Positions 904 to 61,697 are shown, numbered from the stretch's first letter. The stretch is 64,000 nt of DNA from a virus (IMGVR_UViG_3300007754_000852); one strand, 5' to 3'. Notes: generated by a model not told the origin, from the sequence alone. Numbers and translations are program-made.

Positions 904-904
904 C

Positions 905-16247: not shown

Positions 16248-19094
16248 TTAAAAATCTTCCCTTATCTTAAAGAGCATCTCATCTGAGCGTCGCTTTTTAA
16301 CAGGCTGTGCCAGCTTTACCTTCATTATAACATTTAAATTATCATCGTGAAAGTTTATTCCGTCGATATATACAAACTTTGGATCATGATCATTTGCATC
16401 AAATGACGCTGACACAACCTGATACTGCGGGTTTGATGATGAATTATGAAGACCTACGTCACACGGTACATTTATCGTTAATATGTGAGAGCTTTGCTCT
16501 CCCTTAAAACTAACCTTATACTGATCTTTTCCAAAGAACGGAATGTTTGGAGATTTTATAAGAACTATCCCTTCATCATAGAAAATATTTCCTACGCTGG
16601 CCCACTTAGGGTGCGGCGTCAGGGAATCAGACCTGTAAATGCTTCCTTTTCCATTGTCACTTAATGTCATCTTGACGGCACCACTAGATCCGGTGACATC
16701 GTAGTCCTCTATCTTGAAGCTTCCAGGGAGTATTCTGTTTCCATAGTATAGATTTGATATGTCAAATATCACTATCTCATTAGAGCTAACGTCTCTAGTT
16801 CTCTGTGCAACAGCAAGGCTTGCTATTTCAGGCGCTCCTGATGCCTTTTCAGGTGTTGCACCGAGCAAAGTTTTTGCAAATGCATTACTGGGCACTGCCA
16901 TGCCGTCATACCACAATCTTGGATTTCCACCAGACGCTATCAGTTTATCTATGTTAATTACGCTTAGATTAAGATCTCCAAGATCACCTTTAAACCGTGA
17001 CATAGGCCCGCTAATAAGAGACTCAGGCAGCGTGCCACTTCTAAGGATCTCATAATCAGGAAAGAATAGACCGTTATCACACGGTAAGACAGTTAGATTT
17101 CTCTTTCTAGCTGATCCGCGGAGAACGTCTTCCCACTTTGAATTAGAAACAGCTAGAGATCCTGTTGAGCTTGCATAAAAATACTCATTAAATGACCACT
17201 CTGTATTATCGCTGTGCGATCTGGCAACGCCGACATCGCTTCCTACGTTGTTTGTGGTTGTCGGGCCTGTTGAACCGGTTAACCTGTATAGGCGTGGGTG
17301 ATTGTTTGTGATGAAATCTCTAACAAAGTTTTCAAGGTTTAAGACATGACCGCCGACTGCAAGAGACGCTGTGACGTTAAATGGAGTATTTGTCTGTGCA
17401 GTTTTATCAAAAAACGGTGTCTTAAGTATTTTTCTCGGACGACTTTCCTTAACAAAGTATGGTGGAAGATAAAACAGCATGCTTCCTGTTGACGTCTGCC
17501 CGATAATAGATGCGCTGTGAACGATGTTATCATCAACATACTCTGTAAATATCTTTACGTCATGGATCTCAGCATTTAACGGATGGTTTAGCTCGAATCC
17601 TGAATCGCCTTTTGATCCTGTTGGGTCTCCTTTGAAGCCCAGGTCAACAACTCCCTCATTTGACGCCGCCGTCGAATTAAAAAATTTAGCTGAATTTGCC
17701 CCTGCCTCATTGTCATTTTGATCAATTACATCTGATCCGCTATAATAGTTTCCAATAAATAAGGCACCAGCTGTTTTAAATGCTGTCGAACCAGCGCCAG
17801 GCTGTATTGATGATGAGTTTATTGTAAATGGATATGATGCATCATCAACCCTTATGCTTCCCTCACCATTATTAAATAAATTCGTTCCCCATCTAATCGA
17901 TATATGATGCCAGTGATTTCTCTGCAGTGAGTTATCTGGTGTGATAAACATCAGTCCAGACTCACTAGACTGTGGTGCAGCCATCGCTACCTGATTTTTA
18001 TATTTTGAATTTGATGATGATACCTCAACGGGAATCTGTGACGGCTCCCAGTGTTCACAGCTTTCTGCCAACTGAAGCAGTATCCTGTATCCTTTTGTCA
18101 GACCATTTTCATCACGCTCTGACCCTGACACAAGAGATATAGCATAGTTGTTTGGAAGATGCATGATGGTTCCAGGCTTGAAATCCTGATCTGATGCACC
18201 ATTATGATATCTTGGATTTATATAGAAGTCAAATGTAAATGAACCACTAAGTGTATATGGAGGAATTGTACTAAAAATCGGTACAGCGCTAGAAAATACT
18301 GCCCACCTGTACGGAACCATATTATCTGGGTTGTCTGATCCACCTCTTGGATCTAGCTGCTTTCTAAGATACCCTGATCTATACGGTCCAAAGGTATGGG
18401 CAAATCCTGGGCTGAGAGATGTCACGGTGCTATACCCTCTCAACGCACCTGAATTTGGATATATCAGTGCAGAATCACTAGGAACATTTGATGCTGTAAA
18501 AAAGTTTAATGAGTGATAGTTTGTATATGAGTACTCACAGGAATCATACTTTGAACGATAAAATGGCATCAGTGAATTCTTGATCGTAGACTTGATCATT
18601 GATCCTGTAGACATCGCGGACTGCTCATATGCGTAAGCCATGTCAGAATTAGCATTTCTAACCTCATAATAGAAATCATTTTCACCATATCTTCTTATAG
18701 GGATCATCTTTCTATTTCTAGGGAGAACATTACCGCTATGAACGTATGACATATATTCATCAATAACAGACGAAATATTGACGCTCTGTTGCTGTCTGGT
18801 CGCACTTAAAACCTGCCTTGACGCTCCGACAAGGTCATCCTCTGCTGCAAATCCTCCTAGACCCTGTGAGCTAAACGCGTTTTTGTTTTCTGCAGATATA
18901 GAAAAATCCTTGACATCCTTGATAAATGGACTAGGTCTAGCAGACACGCTAACAGACCCAGACATCTGACTGGGCACTGTGTGTGCATTATTTGAGCGAT
19001 CACTTGCCTTTGACGACGAAACAAAAGTAACATCTGGATGTAAGGTTAAAGACGTATTCTCAAAGAATTCTGATAGTATCTTTATAAGAGACAC
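16248..19094 (-). CDS. Virion structural (baseplate/tail) protein with a LamG-like domain and C-terminal tail-collar-like domain
   Basis: LamG-like FTFDFYINP..WHHISIRW..LFIGNY..EIHDVKIF. C-terminal YIDGINFHDDNLNVIMKVKLAQPVKK. Confidence 0.65.
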   Translation of the reverse strand: MSLIKILSEFFENTSLTLHPDVTFVSSSKASDRSNNAHTVPSQMSGSVSVSARPSPFIKDVKDFSISAENKNAFSSQGLGGFAAEDDLVGASRQVLSATRQQQSVNISSVIDEYMSYVHSGNVLPRNRKMIPIRRYGENDFYYEVRNANSDMAYAYEQSAMSTGSMIKSTIKNSLMPFYRSKYDSCEYSYTNYHSLNFFTASNVPSDSALIYPNSGALRGYSTVTSLSPGFAHTFGPYRSGYLRKQLDPRGGSDNPDNMVPYRWAVFSSAVPIFSTIPPYTLSGSFTFDFYINPRYHNGASDQDFKPGTIMHLPNNYAISLVSGSERDENGLTKGYRILLQLAESCEHWEPSQIPVEVSSSNSKYKNQVAMAAPQSSESGLMFITPDNSLQRNHWHHISIRWGTNLFNNGEGSIRVDDASYPFTINSSSIQPGAGSTAFKTAGALFIGNYYSGSDVIDQNDNEAGANSAKFFNSTAASNEGVVDLGFKGDPTGSKGDSGFELNHPLNAEIHDVKIFTEYVDDNIVHSASIIGQTSTGSMLFYLPPYFVKESRPRKILKTPFFDKTAQTNTPFNVTASLAVGGHVLNLENFVRDFITNNHPRLYRLTGSTGPTTTNNVGSDVGVARSHSDNTEWSFNEYFYASSTGSLAVSNSKWEDVLRGSARKRNLTVLPCDNGLFFPDYEILRSGTLPESLISGPMSRFKGDLGDLNLSVINIDKLIASGGNPRLWYDGMAVPSNAFAKTLLGATPEKASGAPEIASLAVAQRTRDVSSNEIVIFDISNLYYGNRILPGSFKIEDYDVTGSSGAVKMTLSDNGKGSIYRSDSLTPHPKWASVGNIFYDEGIVLIKSPNIPFFGKDQYKVSFKGEQSSHILTINVPCDVGLHNSSSNPQYQVVSASFDANDHDPKFVYIDGINFHDDNLNVIMKVKLAQPVKKRRSDEMLFKIREDF

Positions 19095-19113
19095 ATGACC
19101 TCACAATTAGAAA

Positions 19114-20385
19114 TTAAAAATCAAGTCTAACTCTAATTGTCAGATCTTTCTCATTATTTTTCTCAATTGGTCGGCTAAGCTTAGCCACAGCTAGCAAGTT
19201 ATCATTGGCATCATACAGCCCAACAGATGTAAAGAATGAGAATGACTTCTGTGTGCTCTCCTGTCCTGCCTCGATCACCTGTATGTCATTGCTAGAGTCA
19301 ACATAGGTTGGATTTGCTGAGTAGTTGAACTCGTCAGCTGTAGCACGACAGAATATCAACGTAGAGTTAATGTTTGTAATATTTTGGAATGTTATTGCTG
19401 TCTGTGATCCTGAGCTGAATCTACAGCCACAGATATGATTGACAATATCATCAATCGATGCCGACACCACTAGATCTGGAATGAACTTGGCATCAGCATT
19501 TCCGCTTAGATCTGCTGTTCCTCCCTGTGTTCCTCCTCCGATAACCATCTTTCCTGTTCCGACAGATCCCGGATTATTCTCATTCATCGCTGAAATTGCA
19601 CCAGAGACATGCTGTCCGCCAGACAAGATCTTCTTCATGTCAAATATGGCTGTTCCTTGCTGATAAAACAGCACACCGACTGACTCTGCAGTATTAGCAG
19701 CATTAACAATATTTCCAGCTGATCCTCCAAATGTAGTCTCTTGATTTGATGCTGCCCCAATGTCTGCAAATATCTTTGATCCGCTTATCGTCGTTCTGTT
19801 GAGATTCGTATACGCCGGTCCTGCAACAGATCCATTTCTAGCTGTTGTATCCTCGGTATCAATGCAAGCAGTTGCAAAGAATCTCATAGCAAAGCTCTCA
19901 CGCTTTATCTGATCTCTTGTAAACAGACGCTTAAAGTTAATAAACATCGCCTCATCTATTCCGTCTTCAGATCCAGCGTTGCTAATTGGTGCTGTAAATC
20001 GTGCGCTTGCATCACCAAGAAGAAGCTTTGCATGCTGCCTGTAGATGTCAACTTTCTCTCTCATCATCACTGACTGAGATGGGAATAGCAGCTTTCCTGC
20101 TGAATCCTGCCCTGTCGCAGATCCTGTAACTGTTGCACTGCCGCTATAGAGGCCCATCGTTATATCAAATACCGGATTTGATGTTTGTAATGTGAAATCT
20201 TGATCATGCACTGTTTGGAATAGTGACGACGTTACACCTGGACCTATTCCGCCTGTAACAAATACCTGATATTTTTTTCTTGTTGTAGACCCAGATATAT
20301 CTTCCTGGATCACATCAACAAGTTGATTTAGAAATGATCTACTTGTCTTAATGTCTGATGCTGCTATTTGTTTAAATGTAGCCAC
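19114..20385 (-). CDS. Virion structural protein with C-terminal tail-collar-like domain
   Basis: GTG start with GGAG RBS. The C-terminal FTSVGLYDANDNLLAVAKLSRPIEK is paralogous to the end of 16248..19094. Confidence 0.65.
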   Translation of the reverse strand: MATFKQIAASDIKTSRSFLNQLVDVIQEDISGSTTRKKYQVFVTGGIGPGVTSSLFQTVHDQDFTLQTSNPVFDITMGLYSGSATVTGSATGQDSAGKLLFPSQSVMMREKVDIYRQHAKLLLGDASARFTAPISNAGSEDGIDEAMFINFKRLFTRDQIKRESFAMRFFATACIDTEDTTARNGSVAGPAYTNLNRTTISGSKIFADIGAASNQETTFGGSAGNIVNAANTAESVGVLFYQQGTAIFDMKKILSGGQHVSGAISAMNENNPGSVGTGKMVIGGGTQGGTADLSGNADAKFIPDLVVSASIDDIVNHICGCRFSSGSQTAITFQNITNINSTLIFCRATADEFNYSANPTYVDSSNDIQVIEAGQESTQKSFSFFTSVGLYDANDNLLAVAKLSRPIEKNNEKDLTIRVRLDF

Positions 20386-20400
20386 TTAAAGAACTCCAAC

Positions 20401-21102
20401 CTACGAAATCTGAACTTTGAAGCTTGTAAATGCACCTGAATTCATGCCAGATATCTCTACAACCTTTTCTACAACTGAGCCGCCTTTCTGCTTATATGTC
20501 GTGTGAACTGAATTTGACACAGATTTTGCCTGGACTGTCATGGTTAAGGCGCCTAAGTTTGATGTGTTTGTTATGGGATCAGCAGGTATAATGTATGTTG
20601 CAATGTTATCAGCGTTAACAGAGTCAGGACCTCCTACGCCGGGAATTGACAAAAATAGATTATCTATTGTCACCTTAAACGAAGCATCTGTTAGCTCTGG
20701 TGCCAAGACACCTCCACCTGACACAGCTTGCTCAACAGTCACCTTCTTTGATATGTCACCTGCAGTTGTTGACCTTGTGAGTGAAAGCGTGCTATCTGAC
20801 ACACCTGTGAGCGTTAAGTTAGGAAGCTTTGTCAAATTTGGATTGCTAATGCTTACCAGCCTGTACTTTTGTCCAAGATTTCCCCTAGTTAACGCTTCAA
20901 GAACTGGTGTGTTCTTTTCAATCTTTTCCTTGCCGACGGTTCTACCAAACTTTTTAATAATTGAATAGTCTATCTCATCATCCCCTAGTGCAAATTTAAC
21001 AATAGAAAATGATCCGTCATTTCTCGCTAGAAATTGACGACCGACATCTGTTAAAACAGCGTCGAGAATAATGTTGTTAGTCGAATGATCAAGATACCCG
21101 AT
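20401..21102 (-). CDS. Virion structural protein, 233 aa, extended from the ORF track and apparently starting at ATC
   Basis: The frame is open from ATC at 21102 (xGYLDHSTNNIILDAVLTDVGRQFLARNDGSFSIVKFALGDDEIDY...) with an AGAGGTG RBS and an in-frame TGA five codons upstream. The N-terminus is paralogous to 30280..31398. Confidence 0.75.
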   Translation of the reverse strand: MGYLDHSTNNIILDAVLTDVGRQFLARNDGSFSIVKFALGDDEIDYSIIKKFGRTVGKEKIEKNTPVLEALTRGNLGQKYRLVSISNPNLTKLPNLTLTGVSDSTLSLTRSTTAGDISKKVTVEQAVSGGGVLAPELTDASFKVTIDNLFLSIPGVGGPDSVNADNIATYIIPADPITNTSNLGALTMTVQAKSVSNSVHTTYKQKGGSVVEKVVEISGMNSGAFTSFKVQIS

Positions 21103-21146
21103 GATACACCTCTTTTTTCAACAGGCCGTGCCTGAACTTCTATCAA

Positions 21147-21169
21147 TAATTATACAAATCTTAATTATT
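21147..21169 (-). promoter_or_regulatory. Two candidate late-promoter motifs (AATAATTA, TATAATTA)
   Basis: Located at 21162-21169 and 21147-21154 in the gap upstream of the ATC-start gene. Confidence 0.35.
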
Positions 21170-21197
21170 CACAGTAAATAGAATTATTTATCTATCT

Positions 21198-23192
21198 TCA
21201 GCTACCCTGACCTGAATTTCCTAACATTGCAAGCGTTGTAACGTTTGCTGAAGACTCTGCAACTGACTGCGGTTCTGTTCTAACATTACTTAGATATATG
21301 TCAACTGTTTTTGCACTTTGAAGATCTGTATTAAGAATCTGCAGCTTGTATGCAGGATAAGACGGTTCTGACTCATCAAGTCCACGAATTAAAGATAAAT
21401 CATTGCTCTTCGTATCCCAGCCTCCTGACTGCGTCTGTAACACCTCTCTCTTATATACCTTGAGAAATTCGGGATCAGAATATATTTTTATTCTACTGTG
21501 GCCTGAATCTTTCATTGTATCGACAAACACATCACCATCTAGATATAAATTTGGATAAGATTTAGGTGCACCAGATCGTGATATCATCTTGACATTTAGC
21601 TTATTTTTTAATTTATCAAATGACACCTCAAGCTGCATAGAATAATTTGATGATAGACCTCTTGCATCAATTGAAGCCAGCGTATAGACGTACTTTGAGC
21701 TTTTTGTAAAATATGCATCTCTAAATGACTTCTTAGGATGCTTCATTCTCTGTGATATCGATGCCGGTGCTCTCTCAAGAGGCTGTGTTATTGATGTCGA
21801 ATTGTCAAAATTATACTCTCTAATCAGGGTAAATGGGTGTCTTATATTTCCTCGTCTAAATATTTGAAATCTCTTAATGTCTCTCTGTGGGTTTATTGGA
21901 AACTCCCAGAATATTATCAGGCCCCCTTTCTTAAAATCATACTTAAATCTCACATCAACTGGTGGTGGCGGTGGCATGTCTTCCTTGCACATCACAGTTG
22001 TGCTTATTCCAGATGACGCTATTAGTGTGCTGGCCATAACAACCTGATCAGCTGTCGACGTAGATATTCTTCTTGCTTCAAATCTAGACAATGATATCGC
22101 ATGAACCTTATACAGATATTCTCCTCCATACATGACCTCAGTATCGATAACTGATGTAATATCTGCTGAATCAACAGGTATTGATCTCATTTTTGACAGG
22201 CTTCCGTCACCCTTTATCTCAAACTTTTGAATTAAAAATCCGATTAAAACAGACCCTTCGTTGGCATTTGTCCCTCCTTGAGCGGATGCATTGACTAGCT
22301 CCTGATCAATCGGAATAACAACAGGTTCATAATCTGTCTCTGACACCTGTGTGGGATTTGCACTATTAATTGTCGCATTTTGTACAAACTCAGCAGACTG
22401 TAGTATTCCACTTAGCTCATCTGCATATACGTTTATATTATCGATGATTGAACCGCTAACTATTGTTCCAAACACCAGATTGTTAGCATTGAAGTCAAGC
22501 TGAAGACTTCTAACATGTAAGAGAGGATCAGATACAACAGATTCCTTTATATCAGTCTTAGAATATGTTACACCTTTTGACTGTAGATTTCCAAGAACAG
22601 ATCGAACAGAAAAAGGATCAACAGACGTTACACTGTTTGGCATCTGAGCTGTCGGAGATGAAAAGCCTGAAAGCGCCGCTGACGAGCTAAGAGATGTATA
22701 AAATTTTCTATCAACACCTGTATCCATTAGATTTACACTGCTAAATGACGTATTTGATATCGCATCTTCGAACATTATATTACTAACATTCTCAGACACC
22801 TTGACATTCTCAAATATCGTATTCATCGCTGCAGATGACAGATTTCCTCCTTGTTCACTAGCAAGTGTGTTGAACGAGGGAGGAGAAAATGTGATCCTAA
22901 CAAATCGAGGAACCCTATCTGTGCCGGCCAAAAACTCTAGCTCATCTCTTGTTGTATCGTTAATTGATATGTTTATCTGTTTAGAGCTTTGATTTGTTTT
23001 TTCATCAGGCATAAAATAAACGTAATTAAACTCTGCATTTAGCTGTGACACCTCTGGTATGTCGATCTGTGTTACCGGCTTTGAAGGATATGACGAGGGA
23101 AGCGTGCTATTGCTAATTGAATCGACACCTTCAACACCATCTGTTGGAGTTATACCCTTGTAGGTATTGTTATAAAATTCCTGTGTTGTCAT
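21198..23192 (-). CDS. Large hypothetical virion protein with possible Fn3/Ig-like domains
   Basis: 664 aa, PPPPVDVRF..IIFWE..RFQIFRR..YVYTLASID pattern, within the structural block. Confidence 0.6.
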   Translation of the reverse strand: MTTQEFYNNTYKGITPTDGVEGVDSISNSTLPSSYPSKPVTQIDIPEVSQLNAEFNYVYFMPDEKTNQSSKQINISINDTTRDELEFLAGTDRVPRFVRITFSPPSFNTLASEQGGNLSSAAMNTIFENVKVSENVSNIMFEDAISNTSFSSVNLMDTGVDRKFYTSLSSSAALSGFSSPTAQMPNSVTSVDPFSVRSVLGNLQSKGVTYSKTDIKESVVSDPLLHVRSLQLDFNANNLVFGTIVSGSIIDNINVYADELSGILQSAEFVQNATINSANPTQVSETDYEPVVIPIDQELVNASAQGGTNANEGSVLIGFLIQKFEIKGDGSLSKMRSIPVDSADITSVIDTEVMYGGEYLYKVHAISLSRFEARRISTSTADQVVMASTLIASSGISTTVMCKEDMPPPPPVDVRFKYDFKKGGLIIFWEFPINPQRDIKRFQIFRRGNIRHPFTLIREYNFDNSTSITQPLERAPASISQRMKHPKKSFRDAYFTKSSKYVYTLASIDARGLSSNYSMQLEVSFDKLKNKLNVKMISRSGAPKSYPNLYLDGDVFVDTMKDSGHSRIKIYSDPEFLKVYKREVLQTQSGGWDTKSNDLSLIRGLDESEPSYPAYKLQILNTDLQSAKTVDIYLSNVRTEPQSVAESSANVTTLAMLGNSGQGS

Positions 23193-23228
23193 ATCTTTTG
23201 TCCGTGATATTCTGTCTATATCGTTTAA

Positions 23229-27707: not shown

Positions 27708-27709
27708 GT

Positions 27710-30280: not shown

Positions 30281-31398
30281 CAGTCAATCACCATCGTAAA
30301 GATATTCACAAACGTTGGTATCCTTGCTGTGTTAAGAAATACCTTTCCAATAAAAAATACACGCTTATTAGACCTAAATCCTGGAAACGGAGTCCTTGCT
30401 ATGTTAAATTCACCAAAGTCGATCACGTCTAGCTTTGTAAACTTGCTTCCTGCAACCTCAAACATCTGCATGACAATGTTATTTTGATCTGACGTCTTTT
30501 CAAACACGATATCTTTTCTCTCTCGAGAAGATGCTTCAGTTGTTAGTGAGACAGAAAGATTCTCCATGGCAACATCTTGCATCAGCTGTTTATGATATTG
30601 TAATCCTGATCCGCCTGTAGATCCTTCTGTCTCATTAGACATTTCATTTATAGCCGTTTCTTGATCTATCACACTAGTCTCTGACTTCTCTAGTTCCATC
30701 ATCAGATCGAAATACGACATGTCATCAGCCTGATTTAAATTCTCAAACCTCCCAAGCCTTCTAGAGTCAAACGGACCTGAGCCCGGCACAACAGGCGGAA
30801 GAAACTTAAATTGATCAAGATGTGACAACCTCTTGTCTAAAAAAAACGGTTCAATGGTGTCGACATCTGCCTCAGTTACGTCACCTGATGAGAAAGGCCT
30901 TGAGTTGTCAATTGTGAAGCTTAGCCTCTCTGTATTAAGCTTTAGCTTCTTATCTAACTCAAATGTTGCCCTAGACCCTATTGAGTATAGATCGTCAAAG
31001 TGATCTGCAGACGAGCTAACAATTCCTGCAGACAGGCTTGCAAAGTCACCCTTTCCACCTGACACGAACAGATAATCAGCTAGATTCTCACCTGTGGACG
31101 ACTTATCAAACACGCTGTCTCCCACGAGAGATGTATGAGAGTCGATCTCATAACCAAGTAGATCACCACTATCATCAGTCTCAAATGTTATCATGTCCTG
31201 ATGCTGATTGGTTGCCTCAAAATAGATCCTCTGGGTCGCATCGGCTGATCCACTTGCTATGTCAGGCCTATAGAATGTTGATGAGTCAGTAAATGATGCG
31301 AACTCTATTCTCATCTTACCGCTTGCCATTTGACGTCGACCTATCTCAGTCACAAGAACATCCATTATTCTAGACTTATTATCTAAGATTCCTGCCAT
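30280..31398 (-). CDS. Virion structural protein, paralog of 20401..21102
   Basis: N-terminus MAGILDNKSRIMDVLVTEIGRRQMASGKMRIEFASFTD. Confidence 0.6.
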   Translation of the reverse strand: MAGILDNKSRIMDVLVTEIGRRQMASGKMRIEFASFTDSSTFYRPDIASGSADATQRIYFEATNQHQDMITFETDDSGDLLGYEIDSHTSLVGDSVFDKSSTGENLADYLFVSGGKGDFASLSAGIVSSSADHFDDLYSIGSRATFELDKKLKLNTERLSFTIDNSRPFSSGDVTEADVDTIEPFFLDKRLSHLDQFKFLPPVVPGSGPFDSRRLGRFENLNQADDMSYFDLMMELEKSETSVIDQETAINEMSNETEGSTGGSGLQYHKQLMQDVAMENLSVSLTTEASSRERKDIVFEKTSDQNNIVMQMFEVAGSKFTKLDVIDFGEFNIARTPFPGFRSNKRVFFIGKVFLNTARIPTFVNIFTMVID

Positions 31399-31414
31399 CT
31401 GACCCTCGTAATGA

Positions 31415-31422
31415 TAACTATC
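31415..31422 (-). promoter_or_regulatory. Candidate late-promoter motif GATAGTTA
   Basis: In the 31-bp gap upstream of 30280..31398. Confidence 0.35.
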
Positions 31423-31429
31423 CCCCTTA

Positions 31430-34400: not shown

Positions 34401-34753
34401 GTAATTGTTTCAGGTGCGGCACTGCCAGGAATAATACTTTGAGATATCAAGCTTGATACAAACGATGTTCCGGCAGACATCGATGAAAATGTTTCAATTG
34501 TTCCGGTCAGGCCTTGTATCATTTGACTGTTTCTTGGAAGAAGCTGCGGATATAATACATTACTGCTTCCTGTAAACACTATTGTATTTGCATCATTAAA
34601 TGTTGATGACATGAATCCCATTCTATCGTGATCGCCAGTTCTTCGAATGACAGGATATGACCCTGTTCTATTATCCTCTATCCTTATTTGTAACCTGGGA
34701 GGTATTCCAAGAAATCTTGTCTGTGTTCCGCTAATTATGTCAATACTGCTCAT
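31430..34753 (-). CDS. Large hypothetical baseplate/tail protein
   Basis: 1107 aa, rich in [S/T]GS, within the baseplate block. Confidence 0.6.
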   Translation of the reverse strand: MSSIDIISGTQTRFLGIPPRLQIRIEDNRTGSYPVIRRTGDHDRMGFMSSTFNDANTIVFTGSSNVLYPQLLPRNSQMIQGLTGTIETFSSMSAGTSFVSSLISQSIIPGSAAPETITPFVDSRIYLSESAFYLTGTSPEQVLGFSSPLKDKTQIRIDITHNAPTAHYSTRFSRHSDGAGGDKFVTASSEFADRDITGFSYYNWDLKRWEDTGNIDPASQTPLQYDWAWHAEGQFATNNNDMISGSTSFPFQFTPNQASQANTSLDPLNIVLPAQNYRRAGYPTITGMAPFDTRYHATSSQCLKMSDYISSPFMLEKLVIELPVMAQRQVHGTGSNTSGVVPVHEKGLDGANQVPQQDYVFFVYRQQRKPFARGKYSGNNDHAPKTHSSGTAVTASLGGRDSHYGVSGSHRFLICSGVMTFYNTGVLNVRPLSMDPDSFSPPGVLSYNFLPFNGSAFSHKFTVDPLVGVDSINNQHSHFLVSGTFTGSVRMEIQPAVVAPSFHGHHYVPDSSAGYTMAGGSGDNKLVNGNAHLFNYWPGGTSCDAFRVGIDNPSYSREPVGGKDTDAFTVFGQHTYDFYPGKDIRGVNEHNDPQLPIQKISGSMGLLKIDPRVNRPFGGSHRLEQHPDIYSTFDKIGFDSMSTGSLQEKGPYLLFPEDELVFGLEACIGMTYFQDFYTVTGSRMNICTPQLHSNIREVNGGRASITMFGSLVREGKEYHETLNQNLTSNAIHEAILGEPVVDQYDIATRDEMIGTYVDNYVVGNIHATGTTNGTKGIREDGGKLLREQLDFTRTVMGSFSSGTANPKGSSGTKTYYGSGSMQRFVRLSSRSERYYDTFLPDIYEYLVTYGGAGTPRIGNSISVGYDGMVGNMLLVTGSVVLQLNGNRMKLPFDNNIERYPESWGEIFNSATPLPDSTLSPEQPPSAAAELQGIFLAGENIINITTGLFINAIAAKRMLFETGKGSVLTDFNDQQAVTPMTDVDSGISGSARGFSYGIQNIDPQFSSAVFRWNRYGQFRDMLEQRQDGKFYIMETASEDEESEQSPGLQPAVVKVDFVKESSAETVIPGDTQCSNLSFECTSSVPYYDGMFRNRSKEMDVEEEYVALI

Positions 34754-35727
34754 CTCTTCAATCCTGCAAATGCAATTGAATCAGTTCCAAGAACTGTGCT
34801 GCATCCTGTATCGCTTCCGGTTACAGATATCTCTCTAAAGATAAACCCTGCTGTTGCAGACTTAAAACGTGTTCCATACGGACCTCGATCTCTAAAGCTA
34901 CCTGATATGCTCTCTATCATTAGAGAACCGCTTGCGCCTGTTGAGTGATCATCTCCTATTGCTAGCTTTGGAAATAACCCTTGTGAATCATCAAATGGAA
35001 TGACATTTGACCTAAATGATGACACAATTCCAGGCTGAAATAGATACGCAAAGCTTCCAGATATCTGCTCATTGGAGCTGCTGGCAGGTATTGCAATAGA
35101 ACCCGTCTGTATTCCTGGCAGCCTTGGACCGGATAACCCCTCAGATGACTCAAAATATGCAGACTTAGTAACTGGGCTGAATTCGATCCTTTGTGAGATC
35201 ATGACACAGTCTCTATTGGCATCCTGTGTTGCGTCTGACTGTAAGGAGGCACGTATTTTATGAGACACAAACGGAGATTCTATTGACGCACCGACAAGAC
35301 CTGCACGTATTGCGAGAGGCTCAATAACACCGTCCATCTGACCTGGGTCGAGAAAAAACGGTGTTGACAGCACAACTGGATATTGCTCACCGCCTGCATC
35401 GTTAATATAATCTTCTGGATTAACCTTTCCAATTATGTCAATAAATGGAGACGGAACTCCGTCTGGCCCTGGATCCTCATGAAGCTTTGGTTGGCCATAT
35501 AGAATGGTCTTCATCTCATGACTAAATCTATCACCAGTCCCGTCAGGAAACTCTCCACCCATGATTATGGGGCTTAGGCTCTGTCTATAGTCACTAAAGT
35601 CTCTAACACTGACACCCTGCCTAAATTGATCAACAGAGTTTCCAAGAGAGCTAGAGACAGCTGTTGCACGAGATATGATCCTGTTTACATCACGTATTCC
35701 TCGATCTCTAAACGGTACAATTGCCAT
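34750..35727 (-). CDS. Hypothetical baseplate/tail protein
   Basis: 325 aa, rich in [S/T]GS, GGAG RBS. Confidence 0.6.
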   Translation of the reverse strand: MAIVPFRDRGIRDVNRIISRATAVSSSLGNSVDQFRQGVSVRDFSDYRQSLSPIIMGGEFPDGTGDRFSHEMKTILYGQPKLHEDPGPDGVPSPFIDIIGKVNPEDYINDAGGEQYPVVLSTPFFLDPGQMDGVIEPLAIRAGLVGASIESPFVSHKIRASLQSDATQDANRDCVMISQRIEFSPVTKSAYFESSEGLSGPRLPGIQTGSIAIPASSSNEQISGSFAYLFQPGIVSSFRSNVIPFDDSQGLFPKLAIGDDHSTGASGSLMIESISGSFRDRGPYGTRFKSATAGFIFREISVTGSDTGCSTVLGTDSIAFAGLKR

Positions 35728-35741
35728 CTAACACAACTCCA

Positions 35742-38700
35742 TCACTCAGCATTTAAAAGTGCCTCGAGGACATCATCCTCAACACGCACACCTCTCGCAT
35801 CAACATCTCTCTCAAATCCTTGCAGATATATCTCATCAAATAAGTATCTAAACCTGTGTCTTTCAAGAACGTGTGACTCGATAACAAAATTAATTCCCAT
35901 AAACTTTGTCTTTCTTGGAATCACCTGCTCAATTAAAGATCCAAGCGCTGTATCAAACCACTTGAAGAAGTCAAAAAACGCCTGAACGTTTAGCTTCTTT
36001 TCAAGCCTGTTAAAGTAAACCTCTCTCATATAATCTAAATCAGGATATGTCTCGTCAAATAGAAGATTTGGCTTTCCTAAGGCATTATCAAAAAACTCTA
36101 AAGATGAGAAAAGGCTCATGATGTCCTCATTTAATGCCTTCATTGCAGAATAGTCTATTGTAAACCTCGTATCATCATCTGGAATTTCACTTGGTGTAAC
36201 ATCGAATACAGGTGACGTTGTAGCATATGAGTTATCATCTAGATACGATACATCGCTATATCCTCTTACTCGCACCTTTTCATCTGACTGACCTACATCA
36301 AAGCTAGGAGATAGCATGCTATAGTAAAACGTCTCAGGTCTTATGACTGACTTATTTGTCTCAAATCCAGATGCAGAAAAGTTAATTGAATTTTGAGAAA
36401 AATCAACAAGTGCTATATCTCCAGAACCATTTGAATTTGTAACAGCCTGGTCGGTTGAACAGTCAAGTCTCAGCCTGCCAAAAGCTCCCGTCGGCTCTGT
36501 CATAAAGTTAAAGTTTGACATAGGATCACTAACGCCGAGAGACTTAAAGTTCCTTACGTGTTCGCGCCAGTCAGCATCTGACAGCCCCTTGGACCAAAAT
36601 CTGATGTGACCTACCTTTCCAGCAAACTCTGTATTTAGATTTTCAATTCCAGAGTTGACACCAACATTCAGACAGTAGTTATTTGTCGTATCTTGTGATA
36701 TTGACTGTGATCCGACAACAAGAAACGGCCCTGAGCTATTGTAGCTAGACCCGTGCGCCTGAAAGAGATTTGAAGCAGGCGTGCCTACAGATGTTTCCTG
36801 GAAGAATGATGACGTGCTAAAGTATTCCTTTGCCTTTCCGAACGACTGTCTTCCACACCTAAGAAAATATGATGAGGATGACGCAGCACCTATCTCATCG
36901 CACCTATTTCTTCCAAATGACACGCTCCACTGATTTCCGTCAAATATATTCACACCTGTTAATGATAATGTGAATACTGGTTCATTAGTTGAGCCTATAG
37001 ACGGTCTTACAAATAATTTTAGCCCTGATCCGCTTGATGTGACATTGTTCTGTGCACCTGAGAGAACAATCAGGTTTGATAGAACCAATCCTGATCCTGA
37101 CGCTGGTGAGGTTGAACCTGTCGTGTGAATTCTAATAAGGCTCTGTGTAACAGGATACTCATTCTTTATAGGGAACTTATATATTGCCTCATATGTGAAC
37201 GATCCCGACGTGAAAAAACCGTCACCTGGTTCATTTGAGATGCCATGGAGAAACTTTCCGGCATCATCATTTATATCAAGCATTGTGCCCTTTGGCTCAG
37301 GAAATCCTGCCTCTATTCTTGAACTAGATAAGAATCCAGATACTAAATGTGGTGTTATAAACGAGCCTGTTGAAGAACCGAATCCTTGTTGGCTTAGATC
37401 AAGAATCTCATGCTTAGGGGACCATGAAAAGCTTCCAGAAAAGTCTATCATAGAGGAAACATCGGACGTTTTCTGACGTCTGTTCTTTAAAGAGAATCGT
37501 TTTGGTCCTCCATACTCTCTTATTGAAAAAACCTTGTCAGGATTTATTCCTGCTGCTCTCATTATTGACTTAACACTATGAATTGTCCCCTTTGACTGCG
37601 CTATATCCTTTATGTTAATTAAGATTCTCTTCCATATCTGATTTTGGATATATGAAAGAGACTCGCTAGAGAGGCTTTGATTAGTTTTAATGTTTTCTCC
37701 TCTAGAAAATTGCTCAAGAGGAGTGTTTGAATATATTGACGGTAGATGAAATCCATAGTATTTTGCAACAAATGGCAAAAATTTATCTGTAACAGAGTCA
37801 GCACTATCATAATCAGTATGGATAACTGAAGAAAAGTGATCAATAAACACCTTTAGTTCATCAAAAAACTTAGCCCAAATTAAAAGAAATGATGTTAATA
37901 ACTGAGCTGATCCTATCTGCCCTGATCCCGGTATTGACTTTCCTAGATATGGTTCTCCTATCTGTCCATCCTCATTGTCCATTCCTTCATCTACCTGACC
38001 CTCTAAAAGATGATGTTTGGGAATAAGTCGAGTAATAAGATTTGGATTTTCAGAATCATAGTTGCTAGCTGATGACAATAATGTTGAATTTAAATTTGCA
38101 ACTTTTGAATATTCAGGAAAGAGGATTGGTGATATATTTTTATCCTCTGCTGTCATTGGATTTGTCAATGAACCTGTAAGTCTTAGACTTGCAGTGAAGT
38201 TTGTTATTGAACTATGAAGAGAGTTTCCAGAGCTATCAATACAAACATTATTTATTCCGTATGTTCCTGTGTAATAAGGTTCATTAAGTTTAAAATATAG
38301 CTTAAGATCATTATCAGAAAAGATATTTCTAGTTCCATACAAGCCTTGACTTTCTGGTGTTCTAACATTGTGAAAAAATCTAAATTCATCAATTGCACCA
38401 GAAAATGTTTGCTGCGGTGTGAATATCGTCTTTTCTTCTCCAGGTAGATATCCTGTCTGGATGTTTTGAGCAGATCCAGATCCAATAGTTAAACTGCTTT
38501 GGTTTGTAAGAAGCCTTCCTGGTAGGGCAACATTAGATGAGCTAGCCACAAGAGACTGACTAACATAGATCATCAGCCTTCCCCTGTTGACTGATCTATC
38601 AAATACAGCACATATGTGATTCCACTTTCCCTTGTCTATAGATGCACTAGTTGCCAACCTAAGAGATCCTGAGCTTACTGCGAAAATCAAATCTGACGAT

Positions 38701-39368
38701 GCCGATCCACCTGCAGACGTTCCGTCATTTCCTGCTCTATCTAGATTAGATGCGCTTAGAGCTAAAAGAAATCCAAAACTGCCGTCGCCGCCTGTTGATC
38801 CTGATAGTTTTTGACATATGACCTGATTATCGCTTCCAGTTCTTGCAGGATATACATGTGCCTCTATTGAGAATGATGACATATCTACATCTAAAACTGC
38901 ATCGCCTGTATTTATCTTAGAAAAGTTAGGAAACTGACTGCCTGCAGAGTCTACAACCTCTACGTGTGAGGCGCTGAACATTAGAAATCCAACATTCTTT
39001 GGGAATCTTTTTAAGACATCTTTTTCAAAACCAGTTAAAGAGTCTTCAAACTTTTCTAGCTCGTCACGGGTTCCATCAAACGGAAACTCATTTATAATTC
39101 GATCAAATGCAATATTAACTTTAGACTCTGCTGAATTGAAAAACGTGTGATTTTCAAACTTTGAATAGTCAATATCAATTTCCTGTGTCGATCTTAAGCC
39201 TGTTCCAGGAGCATCATATCTAAAAGATGACGTATTTTCAATATTGGAATCAACCATCTTTTTTAGAGATAGATCACTTACAAATCCATGACTATCAACC
39301 TCATTTCTTGTCACTGATGGTGAAAATATCTTTGGCCTCTTTGATATTCGTGACTTACTGTTAGGCAT
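35742..39368 (-). CDS. Baseplate wedge-like protein with two LamG-like domains
   Basis: LamG-like FSIEAHVYP..WNHICAVFD..FSGAIDEFRFF, and a second FTYEAIYKF..FAGKVGHIRFW. Wedge-like segments QIWKRILINI..KGTIHSVKSIMRAAGI and FVIESHVLER. Confidence 0.6.
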   Translation of the reverse strand: MPNSKSRISKRPKIFSPSVTRNEVDSHGFVSDLSLKKMVDSNIENTSSFRYDAPGTGLRSTQEIDIDYSKFENHTFFNSAESKVNIAFDRIINEFPFDGTRDELEKFEDSLTGFEKDVLKRFPKNVGFLMFSASHVEVVDSAGSQFPNFSKINTGDAVLDVDMSSFSIEAHVYPARTGSDNQVICQKLSGSTGGDGSFGFLLALSASNLDRAGNDGTSAGGSASSDLIFAVSSGSLRLATSASIDKGKWNHICAVFDRSVNRGRLMIYVSQSLVASSSNVALPGRLLTNQSSLTIGSGSAQNIQTGYLPGEEKTIFTPQQTFSGAIDEFRFFHNVRTPESQGLYGTRNIFSDNDLKLYFKLNEPYYTGTYGINNVCIDSSGNSLHSSITNFTASLRLTGSLTNPMTAEDKNISPILFPEYSKVANLNSTLLSSASNYDSENPNLITRLIPKHHLLEGQVDEGMDNEDGQIGEPYLGKSIPGSGQIGSAQLLTSFLLIWAKFFDELKVFIDHFSSVIHTDYDSADSVTDKFLPFVAKYYGFHLPSIYSNTPLEQFSRGENIKTNQSLSSESLSYIQNQIWKRILINIKDIAQSKGTIHSVKSIMRAAGINPDKVFSIREYGGPKRFSLKNRRQKTSDVSSMIDFSGSFSWSPKHEILDLSQQGFGSSTGSFITPHLVSGFLSSSRIEAGFPEPKGTMLDINDDAGKFLHGISNEPGDGFFTSGSFTYEAIYKFPIKNEYPVTQSLIRIHTTGSTSPASGSGLVLSNLIVLSGAQNNVTSSGSGLKLFVRPSIGSTNEPVFTLSLTGVNIFDGNQWSVSFGRNRCDEIGAASSSSYFLRCGRQSFGKAKEYFSTSSFFQETSVGTPASNLFQAHGSSYNSSGPFLVVGSQSISQDTTNNYCLNVGVNSGIENLNTEFAGKVGHIRFWSKGLSDADWREHVRNFKSLGVSDPMSNFNFMTEPTGAFGRLRLDCSTDQAVTNSNGSGDIALVDFSQNSINFSASGFETNKSVIRPETFYYSMLSPSFDVGQSDEKVRVRGYSDVSYLDDNSYATTSPVFDVTPSEIPDDDTRFTIDYSAMKALNEDIMSLFSSLEFFDNALGKPNLLFDETYPDLDYMREVYFNRLEKKLNVQAFFDFFKWFDTALGSLIEQVIPRKTKFMGINFVIESHVLERHRFRYLFDEIYLQGFERDVDARGVRVEDDVLEALLNAE

Positions 39369-39381
39369 TGACTATTATCAC

Positions 39382-40917
39382 CTACTCAACTTTAAACTTT
39401 GTTGCCACGTTTGAAAATACCTGCTCAATTCCGTTATCATTAATAAGAAAATCAAATCCGTATGTTCTTCCTGGTGATAAGCTGTCCATATAAAATTCAA
39501 AATACATTCCCTCTGAGTCTGTCGATAGTAGTGTGCCATCTTTCTCTGTATCAAATGGAATTATTATGTCGTTAGAGTCAAAGTCTTTCACCCTGTAATA
39601 CATCTCTGTAAAAATTTTACTCTTAGATATTATTGGTTTCTTTACAAGAACTATGTCATCCTCTATATCCTCTGCAAACACTCTAAGCTTTACCCTTTGA
39701 GACTTCTTATATGAGGATTTAAGATTGATTATGTTAATAAACGGGTTGCATGTCTTATCAACAAATGCAGACCTATTAACTGTGTTTATCACAAGAGATC
39801 CTGTAAAGTATCCAACAGTCTTGTCAAGAGAACTCCACGTCTCTGTAAACGTTGCAGATCCTGCATTTATTATCTCATTTCTCAGTGTTCCAGATTCAAA
39901 TTCAGATATTGAAAATGTTGATGAGTACACACCGCTCATAAAGTTATTTCCAATCTTATGCTGTGATCCTGAAAATGTTCTCGAAAAGAATGTAGAGCTT
40001 CCGGTGCTTCCTGATGCTATTGTTACAAGTAGACAATTTGTTCCCGTTACCTTTGTTGCTGATACACCTGACAAGATGTCGAATCTTGACCCACGATGGA
40101 AGTTATTTAAAAATAGAGATCCAGTTACATCAAAGAAAAAAGATCTATGATGATCATGAATAGAGTCATTAAATCTTACGACTAACTTTGGTCTCTTTCT
40201 TGTATTGGTTGAGTGTCTTGATGCAAACCTCTTGACAAATCTCGTAAAGTGATCAGTCTCCTCACTTCCTGAAAATGATAATCTGAAACCGTGATCAGGT
40301 ATTTGTCCGGCTAGAGTTGCAGATACAACAGTTGTTATATCAATAGACAGATCCTCCTCACCCACGTTGAACTCTTGACTCTTCCAAAGGTTCACAACTC
40401 CGTTTCCATCATGAAGATTGCCACTTGAGATGATGTCAATATCATCTGATCCTAAGAGTCCATCCTTATTAGCTCCTGACATATACCACTGGACGGCCTT
40501 GCCACCTGATATTGACGACGTGTGAAAATTACATGCATCGATATCCTCAAATGTCACAACGTCTCTTCCAATGCCTTCATCAAATGACCTAGAAAGAGGA
40601 AACATTATTACATTAAAGTTAGAAGGCGTTGTCTGGCCTCCATATACATCATGCATCTTTAATGTGCAATTAAACGACGGATGTGTGATATCTAGTGTTG
40701 TTCCTGTAATAGCCTTAAGATGGCTTAGATCAAACTTAATAAGAATTCTAGATATTTCAGTAGGAGCATCAGTTCCGGAAATTAAAGATTCATCATACAA
40801 TTTAAATAAGTCTAACGTTCCTGCTGCGCCGACATTGGCATCAGTCGCTCTAAACGAGCTATTAATAATTTTATTTGTGATGTATGTGTCACTGCTTGCA
40901 GAAAGAATTCTATACAT
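39382..40917 (-). CDS. Virion structural protein (baseplate/neck region)
   Basis: 511 aa, N-terminus MYRILSASSDTYI..SRILIKFDL, directly downstream of the gp6-like gene. Confidence 0.6.
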   Translation of the reverse strand: MYRILSASSDTYITNKIINSSFRATDANVGAAGTLDLFKLYDESLISGTDAPTEISRILIKFDLSHLKAITGTTLDITHPSFNCTLKMHDVYGGQTTPSNFNVIMFPLSRSFDEGIGRDVVTFEDIDACNFHTSSISGGKAVQWYMSGANKDGLLGSDDIDIISSGNLHDGNGVVNLWKSQEFNVGEEDLSIDITTVVSATLAGQIPDHGFRLSFSGSEETDHFTRFVKRFASRHSTNTRKRPKLVVRFNDSIHDHHRSFFFDVTGSLFLNNFHRGSRFDILSGVSATKVTGTNCLLVTIASGSTGSSTFFSRTFSGSQHKIGNNFMSGVYSSTFSISEFESGTLRNEIINAGSATFTETWSSLDKTVGYFTGSLVINTVNRSAFVDKTCNPFINIINLKSSYKKSQRVKLRVFAEDIEDDIVLVKKPIISKSKIFTEMYYRVKDFDSNDIIIPFDTEKDGTLLSTDSEGMYFEFYMDSLSPGRTYGFDFLINDNGIEQVFSNVATKFKVE

Positions 40918-50755: not shown

Positions 50756-50757
50756 AT

Positions 50758-51884: not shown

Positions 51885-51889
51885 TTCAC

Positions 51890-53406: not shown

Positions 53407-53407
53407 A

Positions 53408-61695: not shown

Positions 61696-61697
61696 TT

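What the first reader, a model, noticed from the sequence alone, without database searches (positions are those of the whole stretch)
16248..40917. Extreme enrichment of [S/T]-G-S tripeptides in six tail/baseplate proteins: candidate O-glycosylation sequon
Seen, counted by eye: about 9, 5, 12, 5, 11 and 6 [S/T]GS motifs in the 948, 423, 1107, 325, 1208 and 511-aa proteins (about 48 in 4522 aa). There are none in terminase, SbcCD or the gp6-like protein (2204 aa). The motifs usually follow a hydrophobic residue (VTGS, ISGS, FSGS, LTGS), and related [S/T]AS and [S/T]GT forms are also frequent. Inference: a dispersed acceptor sequon for the adjacent glycosyltransferases, which would link the structural block and the glycan island into one system. 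The alternative is a recurring beta-turn signature.
Basis: partly seen in the sequence, partly recalled or inferred. Interest (0 to 1): 0.75.

Follow-up and report, generated by a model that had tools for sequence, protein, structure and literature searches.

The report
Ser/Thr-Gly-Ser tag on phage baseplate proteins
Six outer baseplate and fibre proteins of this uncultured T4-like ("Far-T4") phage carry the tripeptide Ser/Thr-Gly-Ser about five times more often than chance; over a hundred related phage contigs share the excess, so it may be an attachment signal for a phage-made sugar coat, but no chemistry shows this and the enzyme is not identified.

Summary
The six proteins hold 10, 5, 12, 5, 11 and 6 [ST]GS (49 against 8.7 expected). 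The excess survives whole-protein shuffles, local-block shuffles (z about 12), an anagram control and a dipeptide model. It is coded by mixed Ser codons, so it acts on the protein.

It is a lineage trait, not a quirk of this window. The median excess is 5.2-fold across 113 related loci. It is also present in phages immuto, Mel-JY01 and RM378, and absent in T4.

The sites are semi-conserved hot spots in varied structural settings, at positions poor in hydrophobic residues. At least one nested lineage (L260) has lost the motif from several proteins while keeping fold and gene order. That argues against a structural need and for recognition by a trans-acting factor.

The leading enzyme candidate is a conserved GT4 pair, predicted to form a heterodimer. 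The link is suggestive only:
- LR756508 lacks GT4B and keeps only about 3-fold.
- L260 has an unusually diverged pair.
- L262 keeps an intact pair with a marginally low count.

The window's Maf-like transferase is not shared by five related genomes.

Earlier notes of this scan report the same motif on other, related phage DNA. My confidence in a modification sequon is about 0.4.

The parts
39382..40917 (-). 511-aa baseplate protein directly after the gp6-like gene. N-terminal CBM-like jelly roll plus Ig-like sandwiches. 6 [ST]GS vs 1.0 expected.
   Evidence: Counts. Model pLDDT 95, pTM 0.92. Foldseek matches 8wab and 7vbo, both carbohydrate-binding modules. The family has 1077 clusters. 110 members hold 494 motifs vs 86.6 expected, with about 12 hot-spot columns.
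35742..39368 (-). 1208-aa baseplate protein with a LamG_3 (concanavalin-like) domain at residues 151-339. 11 [ST]GS vs 2.5 expected.
   Evidence: Pfam PF13385, E 1.5e-14. Orthologues lie at the same place in immuto, Mel-JY01, LR756508 and IMG/VR loci.
34750..35727 (-). 325-aa protein. 5 [ST]GS vs 0.8 expected, all in the C-terminal 120 residues.
   Evidence: No Pfam or PHROG family.
31430..34753 (-). 1107-aa baseplate protein. 12 [ST]GS vs 2.0 expected.
   Evidence: 120 homologues hold 1001 motifs vs 247 expected, median 4-fold. Hot-spot columns have 33-63% occupancy. The model is poor (pLDDT 64) and has no fold match.
19114..20385 (-). 423-aa fibre-like protein. 5 [ST]GS vs 0.7 expected. Its C-terminal ~85 residues are shared with many fibre genes of relatives.
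16248..19094 (-). 948-aa fibre-like protein. 10 [ST]GS vs 1.6 expected. It ends in the same C-terminal domain as the 423-aa protein.
   Evidence: Weak Laminin_G_2 hit (E 0.014).
20401..31398 (-). Block of five Ser/Thr-rich proteins (144, 664, 1492, 856, 372 aa) that lies between the enriched genes and is NOT enriched (4 vs 6.3 expected). No homologues in the related phages compared.
   Evidence: The 856-aa protein has only weak FN3-like features in the Atlas (score 0.85).
40923..42779 (-). gp6-like baseplate wedge protein. 0 motifs. It marks the inner edge of the enriched block and served as the marker for relatives.
   Evidence: phrog_219, E 1.9e-18..
47739..48986 (-). GT4A: family-4 glycosyltransferase with an intact E-x7-E motif. 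Conserved in immuto, Mel-JY01, LR756508 and RM378.
   Evidence: Pfam PF00534..
46545..47723 (-). GT4B: second family-4 glycosyltransferase with an intact E-x7-E motif. Conserved in immuto, Mel-JY01, RM378 and G002; absent from LR756508. Predicted to bind GT4A.
   Evidence: Complex score 0.86 vs best control 0.01.
49030..49866 (-). PD-(D/E)XK nuclease-family gene that precedes the GT4 pair in this phage, immuto, Mel-JY01 and clade-1 contigs.
49889..64000 (-). Variable nucleotide-sugar island. It holds a UDP-Glc dehydrogenase-like gene, NeuB, SDR and oxidoreductase genes, a CMP-sugar cytidylyltransferase, a Maf/MptE-like transferase (54121-54858), two methyltransferases, two GDP-mannose 4,6-dehydratases, an epimerase, a DegT aminotransferase, DUF2334, a short GT4-like gene and a carbamoyltransferase.
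   Evidence: The Maf-like gene was not found in five related genomes.

Best explanation
The [ST]-G-S tripeptides are exposed acceptor or recognition sites on the outward-facing baseplate and fibre proteins. A phage-directed modification of Ser/Thr, most likely O-glycosylation in the host cytoplasm before or during tail assembly, would give the tail periphery a sugar coat.

The leading enzyme candidate is the conserved GT4A-GT4B pair acting as a two-subunit enzyme. The neighbouring variable sugar genes would supply or extend the glycan; in this phage that would include a nonulosonic acid added by the Maf-like transferase.

Shown:
- The excess, its specificity and its restriction to outer virion proteins.
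- Its conservation across the Far-T4 group.
- Its dispensability for the fold.

Predicted only:
- The GT4 heterodimer.

Inferred:
- That the motif is modified at all.
- That the modification is a sugar.
- Which enzyme does it.
For: 1. Specificity beyond composition: 49 vs 8.7; anagram, block-shuffle and Markov controls. Ser codons are mixed TCN and AGY, so selection acts on the protein.

2. Letter preferences at hot spots are S/T, then G > S/A, then S far more often than T. Gly and Ser are poor strand formers (general knowledge), so this is unusual for a strand-stabilising role.

3. Distribution: none in gp6-like, the gp25-like 160-aa protein, terminase, SbcC-like protein, primase or the sugar enzymes. 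In 160 IMG/VR loci the excess begins right after gp6; the first 80 were also scored upstream and show none there.

4. It is a lineage trait:
- 113 loci have a median of 5.2-fold.
- immuto and Mel-JY01 carry it.
- RM378 has 21 vs 3.8 with clean anagram controls.
- T4 has none, and P-SSM2 and HTVC008M show no TGS-specific excess.

5. The hot spots of the pLDDT-95 model lie in varied secondary-structure settings. Where the motif is absent, the three positions are hydrophobic in only 27%, 12% and 20% of cases, against a 35% background.

6. Concerted loss:
- In L260 the orthologous 513-, 1093- and 718-aa proteins hold 0 motifs, and the whole block 3 vs 2.3. Hot spots are replaced by ISD, TNR, DSN, VDD, TTT and QGN.
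- L260 is nested among enriched sisters.
- No other tripeptide took the motif's place.

7. GT4 link:
- The PD-(D/E)XK-GT4A-GT4B module is found in all motif-bearing genomes checked for it.
- LR756508 lacks GT4B and keeps only about 3-fold.
- L260's GT4B keeps 80% of otherwise invariant residues, against 91-97% for equally diverged motif-bearing members, and has ECFG in place of EGFG.
- The predicted GT4A-GT4B complex scores 0.86 against a best control of 0.01. That mark was reached by 58 of 80 solved complexes and 2 of 110 mismatched pairs. The runs agree in at least 98% of contacts and the partner's pLDDT is 91. My own alignments were used, so the counts hold only roughly.
Against: - No chemical or proteomic evidence that any of these proteins is modified.
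- L260, and marginally L262, keep intact GT4A and GT4B genes although the motif excess is gone. L262's pair keeps 93/94 and 55/59 invariant residues.
- With about 16 pair+/motif+ loci, 2 pair+/motif-, 1 GT4B-/motif-low and 0 GT4B-/motif+, the chance that the single GT4B-less genome falls among the three low ones is 3/19. That is not significant, and the genomes are related.
- A third to a half of the sites are positionally conserved over deep divergence. Hydrophobic residues at -1, +3 and +5 show that the motif sits at strand edges, which also fits a structural preference.
- Motif counts per protein are no less variable than independent sites predict, so there is no sign of selection on density.
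- The GT4 proteins match only generic GT4 models. They sit next to a nuclease gene, and phage glycosyltransferases can instead modify DNA or host glycans (bioRxiv 10.1101/2023.12.21.572611; PMC12619734).
- Solvent exposure could not be computed, because no model coordinates are given out.
Confidence: 0.4

Rival explanations
1. Structural preference. [ST]-G-S is a favoured strand-edge, tight-turn or bulge element of the beta-sandwich domains (CBM-like, LamG, Ig-like) that build the outer baseplate of this phage group. It is inherited with the folds and is not modified.
For: Hydrophobic residues at -1, +3 and +5, and Thr at +4, in three phages. Hot-spot columns are conserved in 33-63% of distant homologues and are replaced mostly by TSS, SSS, TGT, SAS or AGS. 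Where the motif is absent the middle position is G, N, D or P, which are typical turn residues. Counts behave as independent sites.
Against: The settings are not uniform: mid-strand, strand start, strand end, loop and helix caps. T4 proteins in the corresponding baseplate and fibre positions have none. Five neighbouring Ser/Thr/Gly-rich structural proteins in the same window have none. L260 orthologues keep length and gene order with charged or bulky residues at the hot spots. Ser far exceeds Thr at the third place. A lineage-wide loss in several unrelated proteins at once is not expected of local structural elements.
Confidence: 0.3
2. Unmodified functional surface. The hydroxyl-rich tripeptides on exposed loops serve weak binding to host polysaccharide or slime, hydration or anti-aggregation. 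They rise and fall with host ecology. The GT4 pair and the sugar island do something else, such as modifying host surface glycans or phage DNA.
For: The motif sits on CBM-like and lectin-like domains. The excess varies in degree between lineages, from 1.3- to 9-fold. The GT4 pair persists where the excess is gone. The sugar islands are variable, as expected of host-interaction genes.
Against: A generic physicochemical role would not demand this exact order of letters (SGS over SSG/GSS; TGS over five anagrams; Ser over Thr at the third place) in phages of Flavobacterium, Microcystis and Rhodothermus alike.
Confidence: 0.15
3. Artefact of composition, repeats, paralogy or a DNA-level signal.
For: The six proteins are rich in Ser, Thr and Gly.
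Against: Global and block shuffles, anagram and Markov controls all fail to explain it. There is no detectable paralogy among the six beyond the fibre C-terminal domain that the 423- and 948-aa proteins share through their relatives. Codons are varied. Equally Ser/Thr/Gly-rich neighbours are not enriched.
Confidence: 0.01

Closest known systems
Virion glycosylation of mycobacteriophages by phage-encoded glycosyltransferases (Freeman et al. 2023, Cell Host Microbe; known to me through its summary in PMC12619734, the paper itself was not held)
   Same: Phage-encoded glycosyltransferases near structural genes are proposed to put glycans on the phage's own virion proteins in the host cytoplasm.
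   Different: In that system the glycans sit at the C-termini of capsid and tail-tube subunits and were shown by chemistry. Here the candidate sites are dispersed tripeptides on outer baseplate and fibre proteins, the phage group is unrelated (Far-T4 myoviruses of aquatic bacteria), and nothing is shown chemically.
GtfA-GtfB (accessory-Sec) and SdgA/SdgB: GT4-type O-glycosyltransferases that modify Ser-rich repeats of Gram-positive adhesins (from my own knowledge)
   Same: Two adjacent GT-B proteins work as a complex in the cytoplasm on Ser in short S-x-S contexts. The phage pair is predicted to heterodimerise, and [ST]-[GA]-S resembles one unit of such repeats.
   Different: No match to the GtfA/GtfB models, and only a far sub-threshold SdgA hit (E 0.0034 vs a cut-off of 800 bits). 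The substrates here are folded domains with single dispersed tripeptides, not long tandem repeats. There is no accessory Sec system.
Maf (motility-associated factor, DUF115/MptE-like) flagellin nonulosonic-acid O-glycosyltransferases (from my own knowledge)
   Same: The window encodes a 245-aa MptE-like protein beside NeuB and a CMP-sugar cytidylyltransferase. This is the gene set that decorates Ser/Thr of flagellins with pseudaminic or legionaminic acids.
   Different: The Pfam hit is below the cut-off (E 1.4e-3). The protein is far shorter than Maf enzymes. It is not found in five related genomes, four of them motif-bearing. It can therefore at most extend the glycan in this phage.
Bacterial autotransporter heptosyltransferases (Aah/TibC on AIDA-I/TibA; from my own knowledge)
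   Same: Cytoplasmic O-glycosylation of many Ser residues on beta-rich surface proteins without a long sequon.
   Different: A different enzyme family, and substrates made of regular beta-helix repeats. No sequence relation was tested or seen here.

Membership tests
Phage virion O-glycosylation system (mycobacteriophage type) | Phage-encoded glycosyltransferase genes close to the structural genes | tested here: met
   The GT4 pair at 46545-48986 lies 5.6 kb upstream of the first enriched gene. The same layout is seen in 12 or more clade-1 contigs.
Phage virion O-glycosylation system (mycobacteriophage type) | Glycan shown on virion proteins by mass spectrometry or staining | not testable with these tools
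   No proteomic data are available. No paper on such data for Far-T4 phages turned up (the Far-T4 genome paper PMC4360716 does not mention glycosyl).
Phage virion O-glycosylation system (mycobacteriophage type) | Sites at the C-termini of capsid and tail-tube subunits | tested here: not met
   Candidate sites are dispersed along baseplate and fibre proteins.
GtfA-GtfB type two-subunit Ser-repeat O-glycosyltransferase | Two adjacent GT-B proteins that form a complex | tested here: met
   Prediction only. Score 0.86 vs best control 0.01; the mark was reached by 58 of 80 solved and 2 of 110 mismatched pairs; contact agreement at least 98%; partner pLDDT 91.
GtfA-GtfB type two-subunit Ser-repeat O-glycosyltransferase | Sequence membership in the GtfA/GtfB (or SdgA/B) families | tested here: not met
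   NCBIfam lists only generic GT4 models, all far below their cut-offs. SdgA: E 0.0034, 16 bits vs 800.
GtfA-GtfB type two-subunit Ser-repeat O-glycosyltransferase | Substrate with long tandem Ser-x repeats | tested here: not met
   The motifs are single and dispersed. There is no self-similarity among the six proteins.
Maf/DUF115 nonulosonic-acid protein glycosyltransferase | MptE-like (PF01973) domain above threshold | tested here: inconclusive
   Pfam E 1.4e-3, 18.9 bits vs a cut-off of 34.6. Atlas feature score 0.94 to viral MptE-like clusters, and structural TM 0.62-0.65 to Maf-like models.
Maf/DUF115 nonulosonic-acid protein glycosyltransferase | Present wherever the candidate acceptor motif is present | tested here: not met
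   No match in immuto, Mel-JY01, RM378, G002 or LR756508.
Bacteroidetes general O-glycosylation sequon D-[ST]-[AILVMT] | Asp directly before the acceptor Ser/Thr | tested here: not met
   No Asp at -1 in any of the 49 motifs; that position is hydrophobic in 57%. The motif also occurs in phages of a cyanobacterium and of Rhodothermus.
Uniform beta-turn structural signature | The same secondary-structure setting at all sites, and need for the fold | tested here: not met
   The settings are varied in the pLDDT-95 model. L260 orthologues lack the motif.
Far-T4 phage group (Comeau and Krisch 2008; Roux et al. 2015, PMC4360716) | T4-like virion genes with relatives such as RM378, distinct from T4 and cyano-T4 phages | tested here: inconclusive
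   Terminase, the portal-like protein, the GT4 pair and the fibre C-terminal domain match RM378, immuto and Mel-JY01 better than T4. No major capsid protein tree was made; the capsid gene is outside the window.

The most novel reading that the evidence does not exclude
Far-T4 phages, a very abundant aquatic group, run a general protein O-glycosylation system of their own. It would have a defined three-residue sequon, [ST]-G-S, written many times on outer tail proteins. A conserved GT4A-GT4B heterodimer would read it, and lineage-specific sugar islands would extend the glycan. Loss or divergence of the enzyme would be followed by decay of the sequon across the virion proteome.
Probability: 0.22. 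Interest if true: 0.85.

Novelty: new variant of a known kind. Interest (0 to 1): 0.6.

Why it matters
If the motif is a glycosylation sequon, it would be the first defined sequon for a phage-encoded protein glycosylation system. A sugar coat would then be predicted on the tails of a phage group that is common in lakes and oceans. That bears on host recognition, stickiness to slime and particles, and decay of virions.

It is directly testable, because three relatives are in culture: immuto on Flavobacterium, Mel-JY01 on Microcystis and RM378 on Rhodothermus.

If it is only a structural habit of these domains, it remains a useful sequence marker for the outer virion proteins of this group, but it is ordinary biology.

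Tried and rejected
- DNA-level signal: rejected, because the codons are varied.
- Composition, local composition and dipeptide artefacts: rejected.
- Paralogy or internal repeats among the six proteins: none beyond a shared fibre C-terminal domain.
- General property of myovirus fibres: rejected. T4 has none. P-SSM2 and HTVC008M show only a weak, non-specific SGS excess.
- A replacement motif in the low-motif lineages: none.
- Selection on motif number (under-dispersion test): not seen.
- Maf-like transferase as the common enzyme: rejected.
- Structure of the 1107-aa protein: poor model (pLDDT 64) with no fold match, so it was not used for site mapping beyond a note.
- Cross-clade alignment of 511-aa orthologues: too diverged to compare hot spots. 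Only one column was shared.
- Closer relatives of the low-motif loci L260 and L262: none in IMG/VR, and only one distant hit in the metagenome scan.
- Whole genome of the window: none is held.
- Papers on Mel-JY01: none held. Freeman et al. 2023: not held.

Full report
WHAT IS THERE. All genes of the window lie on the - strand. In transcription order there is a nucleotide-sugar island (64000 to 49889), a PD-(D/E)XK nuclease gene, two family-4 glycosyltransferases (GT4A 47739-48986, GT4B 46545-47723), and a weakly sigma-70-like 247-aa protein. Small baseplate genes follow, including a 160-aa protein whose orthologues carry GPW_gp25, then a gp6-like wedge protein (40923-42779). Next come the proteins of the finding, of 511, 1208, 325 and 1107 aa. 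A block of five proteins without relatives (372, 856, 1492, 664, 144 aa) follows, then the 423- and 948-aa fibre-like proteins. The window ends with a RuvC-like gene, primase, an SbcC-like gene, terminase, a portal-like gene and a protease.

THE OBSERVATION. [ST]GS occurs 10, 5, 12, 5, 11 and 6 times in the six proteins. That is 49 against 8.7 expected, and each protein has p <= 0.001 by shuffling. TGS and SGS are the two most enriched of all tripeptides (p 1.8e-13 and 4.6e-10).

Anagrams with the same composition are not enriched: SGS 26 vs GSS 6 and SSG 10; TGS 23 vs 2-9. Shuffling inside blocks of 10-30 residues gives about 10 (z about 12). A dipeptide model still expects only 11 and 15.

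The Ser codons are a mix of TCN and AGY, so the constraint acts on the protein. The third letter is Ser, seldom Thr; SAS, SGT and TGT are at most mildly raised. Terminase, the SbcC-like protein and the gp6-like protein have none. The five intervening Ser/Thr/Gly-rich proteins have 4 against 6.3 expected.

IT IS A LINEAGE TRAIT. The gp6-like protein finds Flavobacterium phage immuto, Microcystis phage Mel-JY01 and the 484-kb uncultured phage LR756508. Gene order after gp6 is shared. In immuto and Mel-JY01 the same genes are enriched, for example 26 vs 5.9 and 11 vs 1.4, with the same anagram pattern. In immuto the tail sheath is enriched too (7 vs 1.3).

Further comparisons:
- The 1107-aa family: 120 homologues hold 1001 motifs vs 247 expected.
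- The 511-aa family (1077 clusters at 50% identity): 494 vs 86.6 in 110 members.
- 160 IMG/VR loci found with gp6: the excess starts directly after gp6, and the first 80 loci, which were also scored upstream, show none there.
- On a gp6 tree of 113 loci the median excess is 5.2-fold.
- The distant Far-T4 phage RM378 has 21 vs 3.8, with SGS 9 vs 1 and 2, and TGS 12 vs 0-3.
- T4 has none in gp6-gp12 or gp34-gp38. P-SSM2 and HTVC008M show only a weak, non-specific SGS excess.

Earlier notes of this scan report the same motif on other, related phage DNA. I treated them as leads. They gave me the name Far-T4, which led to PMC4360716; that paper does not mention glycosyltransferases.

WHERE THE MOTIFS SIT. 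Flanks are hydrophobic at -1 (57-65%), +3 and +5, with Thr at +4. In alignments the motifs fall into hot-spot columns occupied in 20-63% of homologues. Elsewhere those columns hold mostly TSS, SSS, TGT, SAS or AGS.

The 511-aa protein gives an excellent model (pLDDT 95, pTM 0.92). It has a CBM-like jelly roll (8wab, 7vbo) followed by Ig-like sandwiches. Its 11 hot spots lie mid-strand (152, 316, 372), at a strand start (265), at strand ends (46, 71, 283, 302), in a loop (291), and at a strand-to-helix (216) and a helix-to-strand (352) junction. This is not one structural element.

Where the motif is missing, the three positions are hydrophobic in 27, 12 and 20% of cases, against 35% overall. 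The middle one is mostly G, N, D, P, E or S. These are the marks of exposed, turn-like places.

THE MOTIF IS DISPENSABLE AND CAN BE LOST IN CONCERT. I looked up contigs for the 511-aa family members with the fewest motifs.

- L260 (57-kb contig, GC 33%) has the full conserved gene order. Its 513-, 1093- and 718-aa proteins hold 0 motifs, and the next 1527 residues hold 3; in all 3 vs 2.3 expected. If the usual 5-fold excess held, the proteins other than the one used for selection would give about 10. Three or fewer has a probability of about 0.01 (my Poisson estimate). The hot spots read ISD, TNR, DSN, VDD, TLD, TTT, NK and QGN.
- L262 (2 vs 1.3) and L265 (1 vs 0.8) are also low, but on short sequence. 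They are only marginal (about 0.04-0.1) and could be tails of the distribution.
- All three are nested among enriched sisters on the tree.
- No other tripeptide replaced the motif.
- The LR756508 clade keeps only about 3-fold.

A loss that hits many sites in several different proteins of one lineage speaks for a shared trans-acting reader rather than for local structural need. Against a density model, motif counts per protein vary as independent sites would.

WHICH ENZYME. The module PD-(D/E)XK-GT4A-GT4B is conserved next to otherwise different sugar genes in immuto, Mel-JY01 and clade-1 contigs. RM378 has the GT4 pair after a different gene, annotated as similar to DNA polymerase I. The 100%-complete contig G002 has GT4B. 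Both proteins keep the E-x7-E motif. They are predicted to bind each other: score 0.86 vs best control 0.01; the mark was reached by 58 of 80 solved and 2 of 110 mismatched pairs; contact agreement at least 98%; partner pLDDT 91. My own alignments were used, so the counts hold only roughly, and a pass may reflect likeness to solved GT-B pairs.

For a link:
- Among the window's genes, GT4B is the only one whose match in LR756508 is missing without an obvious reason while immuto and Mel-JY01 have it. The 511-aa protein also finds no match there, but a 420-aa gene sits in its place. LR756508 has the weak excess.
- In L260 the GT4B keeps 80% of otherwise invariant residues, against 91-97% in equally diverged motif-bearing members, and reads ECFG for EGFG.

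Against a link:
- L260 and L262 still have both genes, and L262's pair is well conserved.
- The 2x2 table (about 16, 2, 0, 1) is not significant.
- The proteins match only generic GT4 models.
- Phage glycosyltransferases may instead modify DNA or host glycans (10.1101/2023.12.21.572611; PMC12619734).

The window's island encodes NeuB, a cytidylyltransferase and a 245-aa MptE/Maf-like protein. That is the gene set used to put nonulosonic acids on flagellin Ser/Thr. This gene was not found in five related genomes. It can therefore only be a local elaboration.

VERDICT. The best reading is an exposed acceptor motif for a phage-directed Ser/Thr modification, probably glycosylation, with the GT4 heterodimer as the leading but unproven enzyme (confidence about 0.4). 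The main rival is a structural strand-edge preference of these domains (0.3). Next comes an unmodified functional surface (0.15). Chemistry on a cultured relative would decide.

Noticed in passing
window 45516-46259 (-): The 247-aa protein just downstream of the GT4 pair is weakly sigma-70/ECF-like (TIGR02937, E 6e-5, below cut-off). It is conserved at this place in immuto, Mel-JY01, LR756508 and the IMG/VR loci, so it may be a late sigma factor. Its clade-2 orthologues carry 2-3 [ST]GS against about 0.0 expected, which is odd for a non-virion protein.
   Followed up: partly
window 11479-14616 (-): The 1045-aa SbcC-like protein starts with a metallophosphoesterase (SbcD-like) stretch, so SbcD and SbcC look fused. 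In LR756508 the matching parts are two separate genes (L003 37763-38494 and 39403-41874).
   Followed up: no
window 1688-3358 (-): The 556-aa protein combines a PhoH-like or helicase-like N-terminal part (residues 39-432) with a prohead-protease match (residues 426-530). This is an unusual fusion.
   Followed up: no
window 4216-9180 (-): A 1654-aa protein matches the T4 gp20 portal region and the portal genes of relatives (immuto's 'capsid assembly protein Gp20' is 617 aa). It is far longer than a usual portal, so it carries a large extra part of unknown role.
   Followed up: no
window 57064-58050 and 63320-63985 (-): Two GDP-mannose 4,6-dehydratase genes, 54% identical over 214 residues. The second is cut by the window's end.
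   Followed up: no
window 50758-52576 (-): The ORFs 50758-51198 (146 aa, no family), 51048-51959 (NeuB) and 51890-52576 (short-chain dehydrogenase) overlap by 150 and 70 bases. Start codons may be miscalled, or the 146-aa frame may be a shifted tail of NeuB.
   Followed up: no
window 61698-63323 (-): The carbamoyltransferase of the island has close relatives in Pelagibacter phage HTVC008M (E 7e-72) and Prochlorococcus phage P-SSM2 (E 6e-62). The core of the island is not shared with the nearer relatives immuto and Mel-JY01. The island therefore looks like a mosaic of widely exchanged marine phage sugar genes.
   Followed up: no
window 20401-31398 (-): Five large Ser/Thr-rich proteins have no family, no relatives in the compared phages and no motif excess. 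They are inserted between conserved enriched genes. They are possibly recently acquired host-specific fibres; the 856-aa one has faint FN3-like features.
   Followed up: partly
L002 (Mel-JY01) 17918-18949; Mel-JY01 record 635-4591: In Mel-JY01 a 'putative chitinase' upstream of the baseplate genes (4 vs 0.3) and two proteins at the genome's start (37 vs 19; 13 vs 2.5) are also enriched. The set of motif-bearing proteins therefore differs between phages.
   Followed up: no
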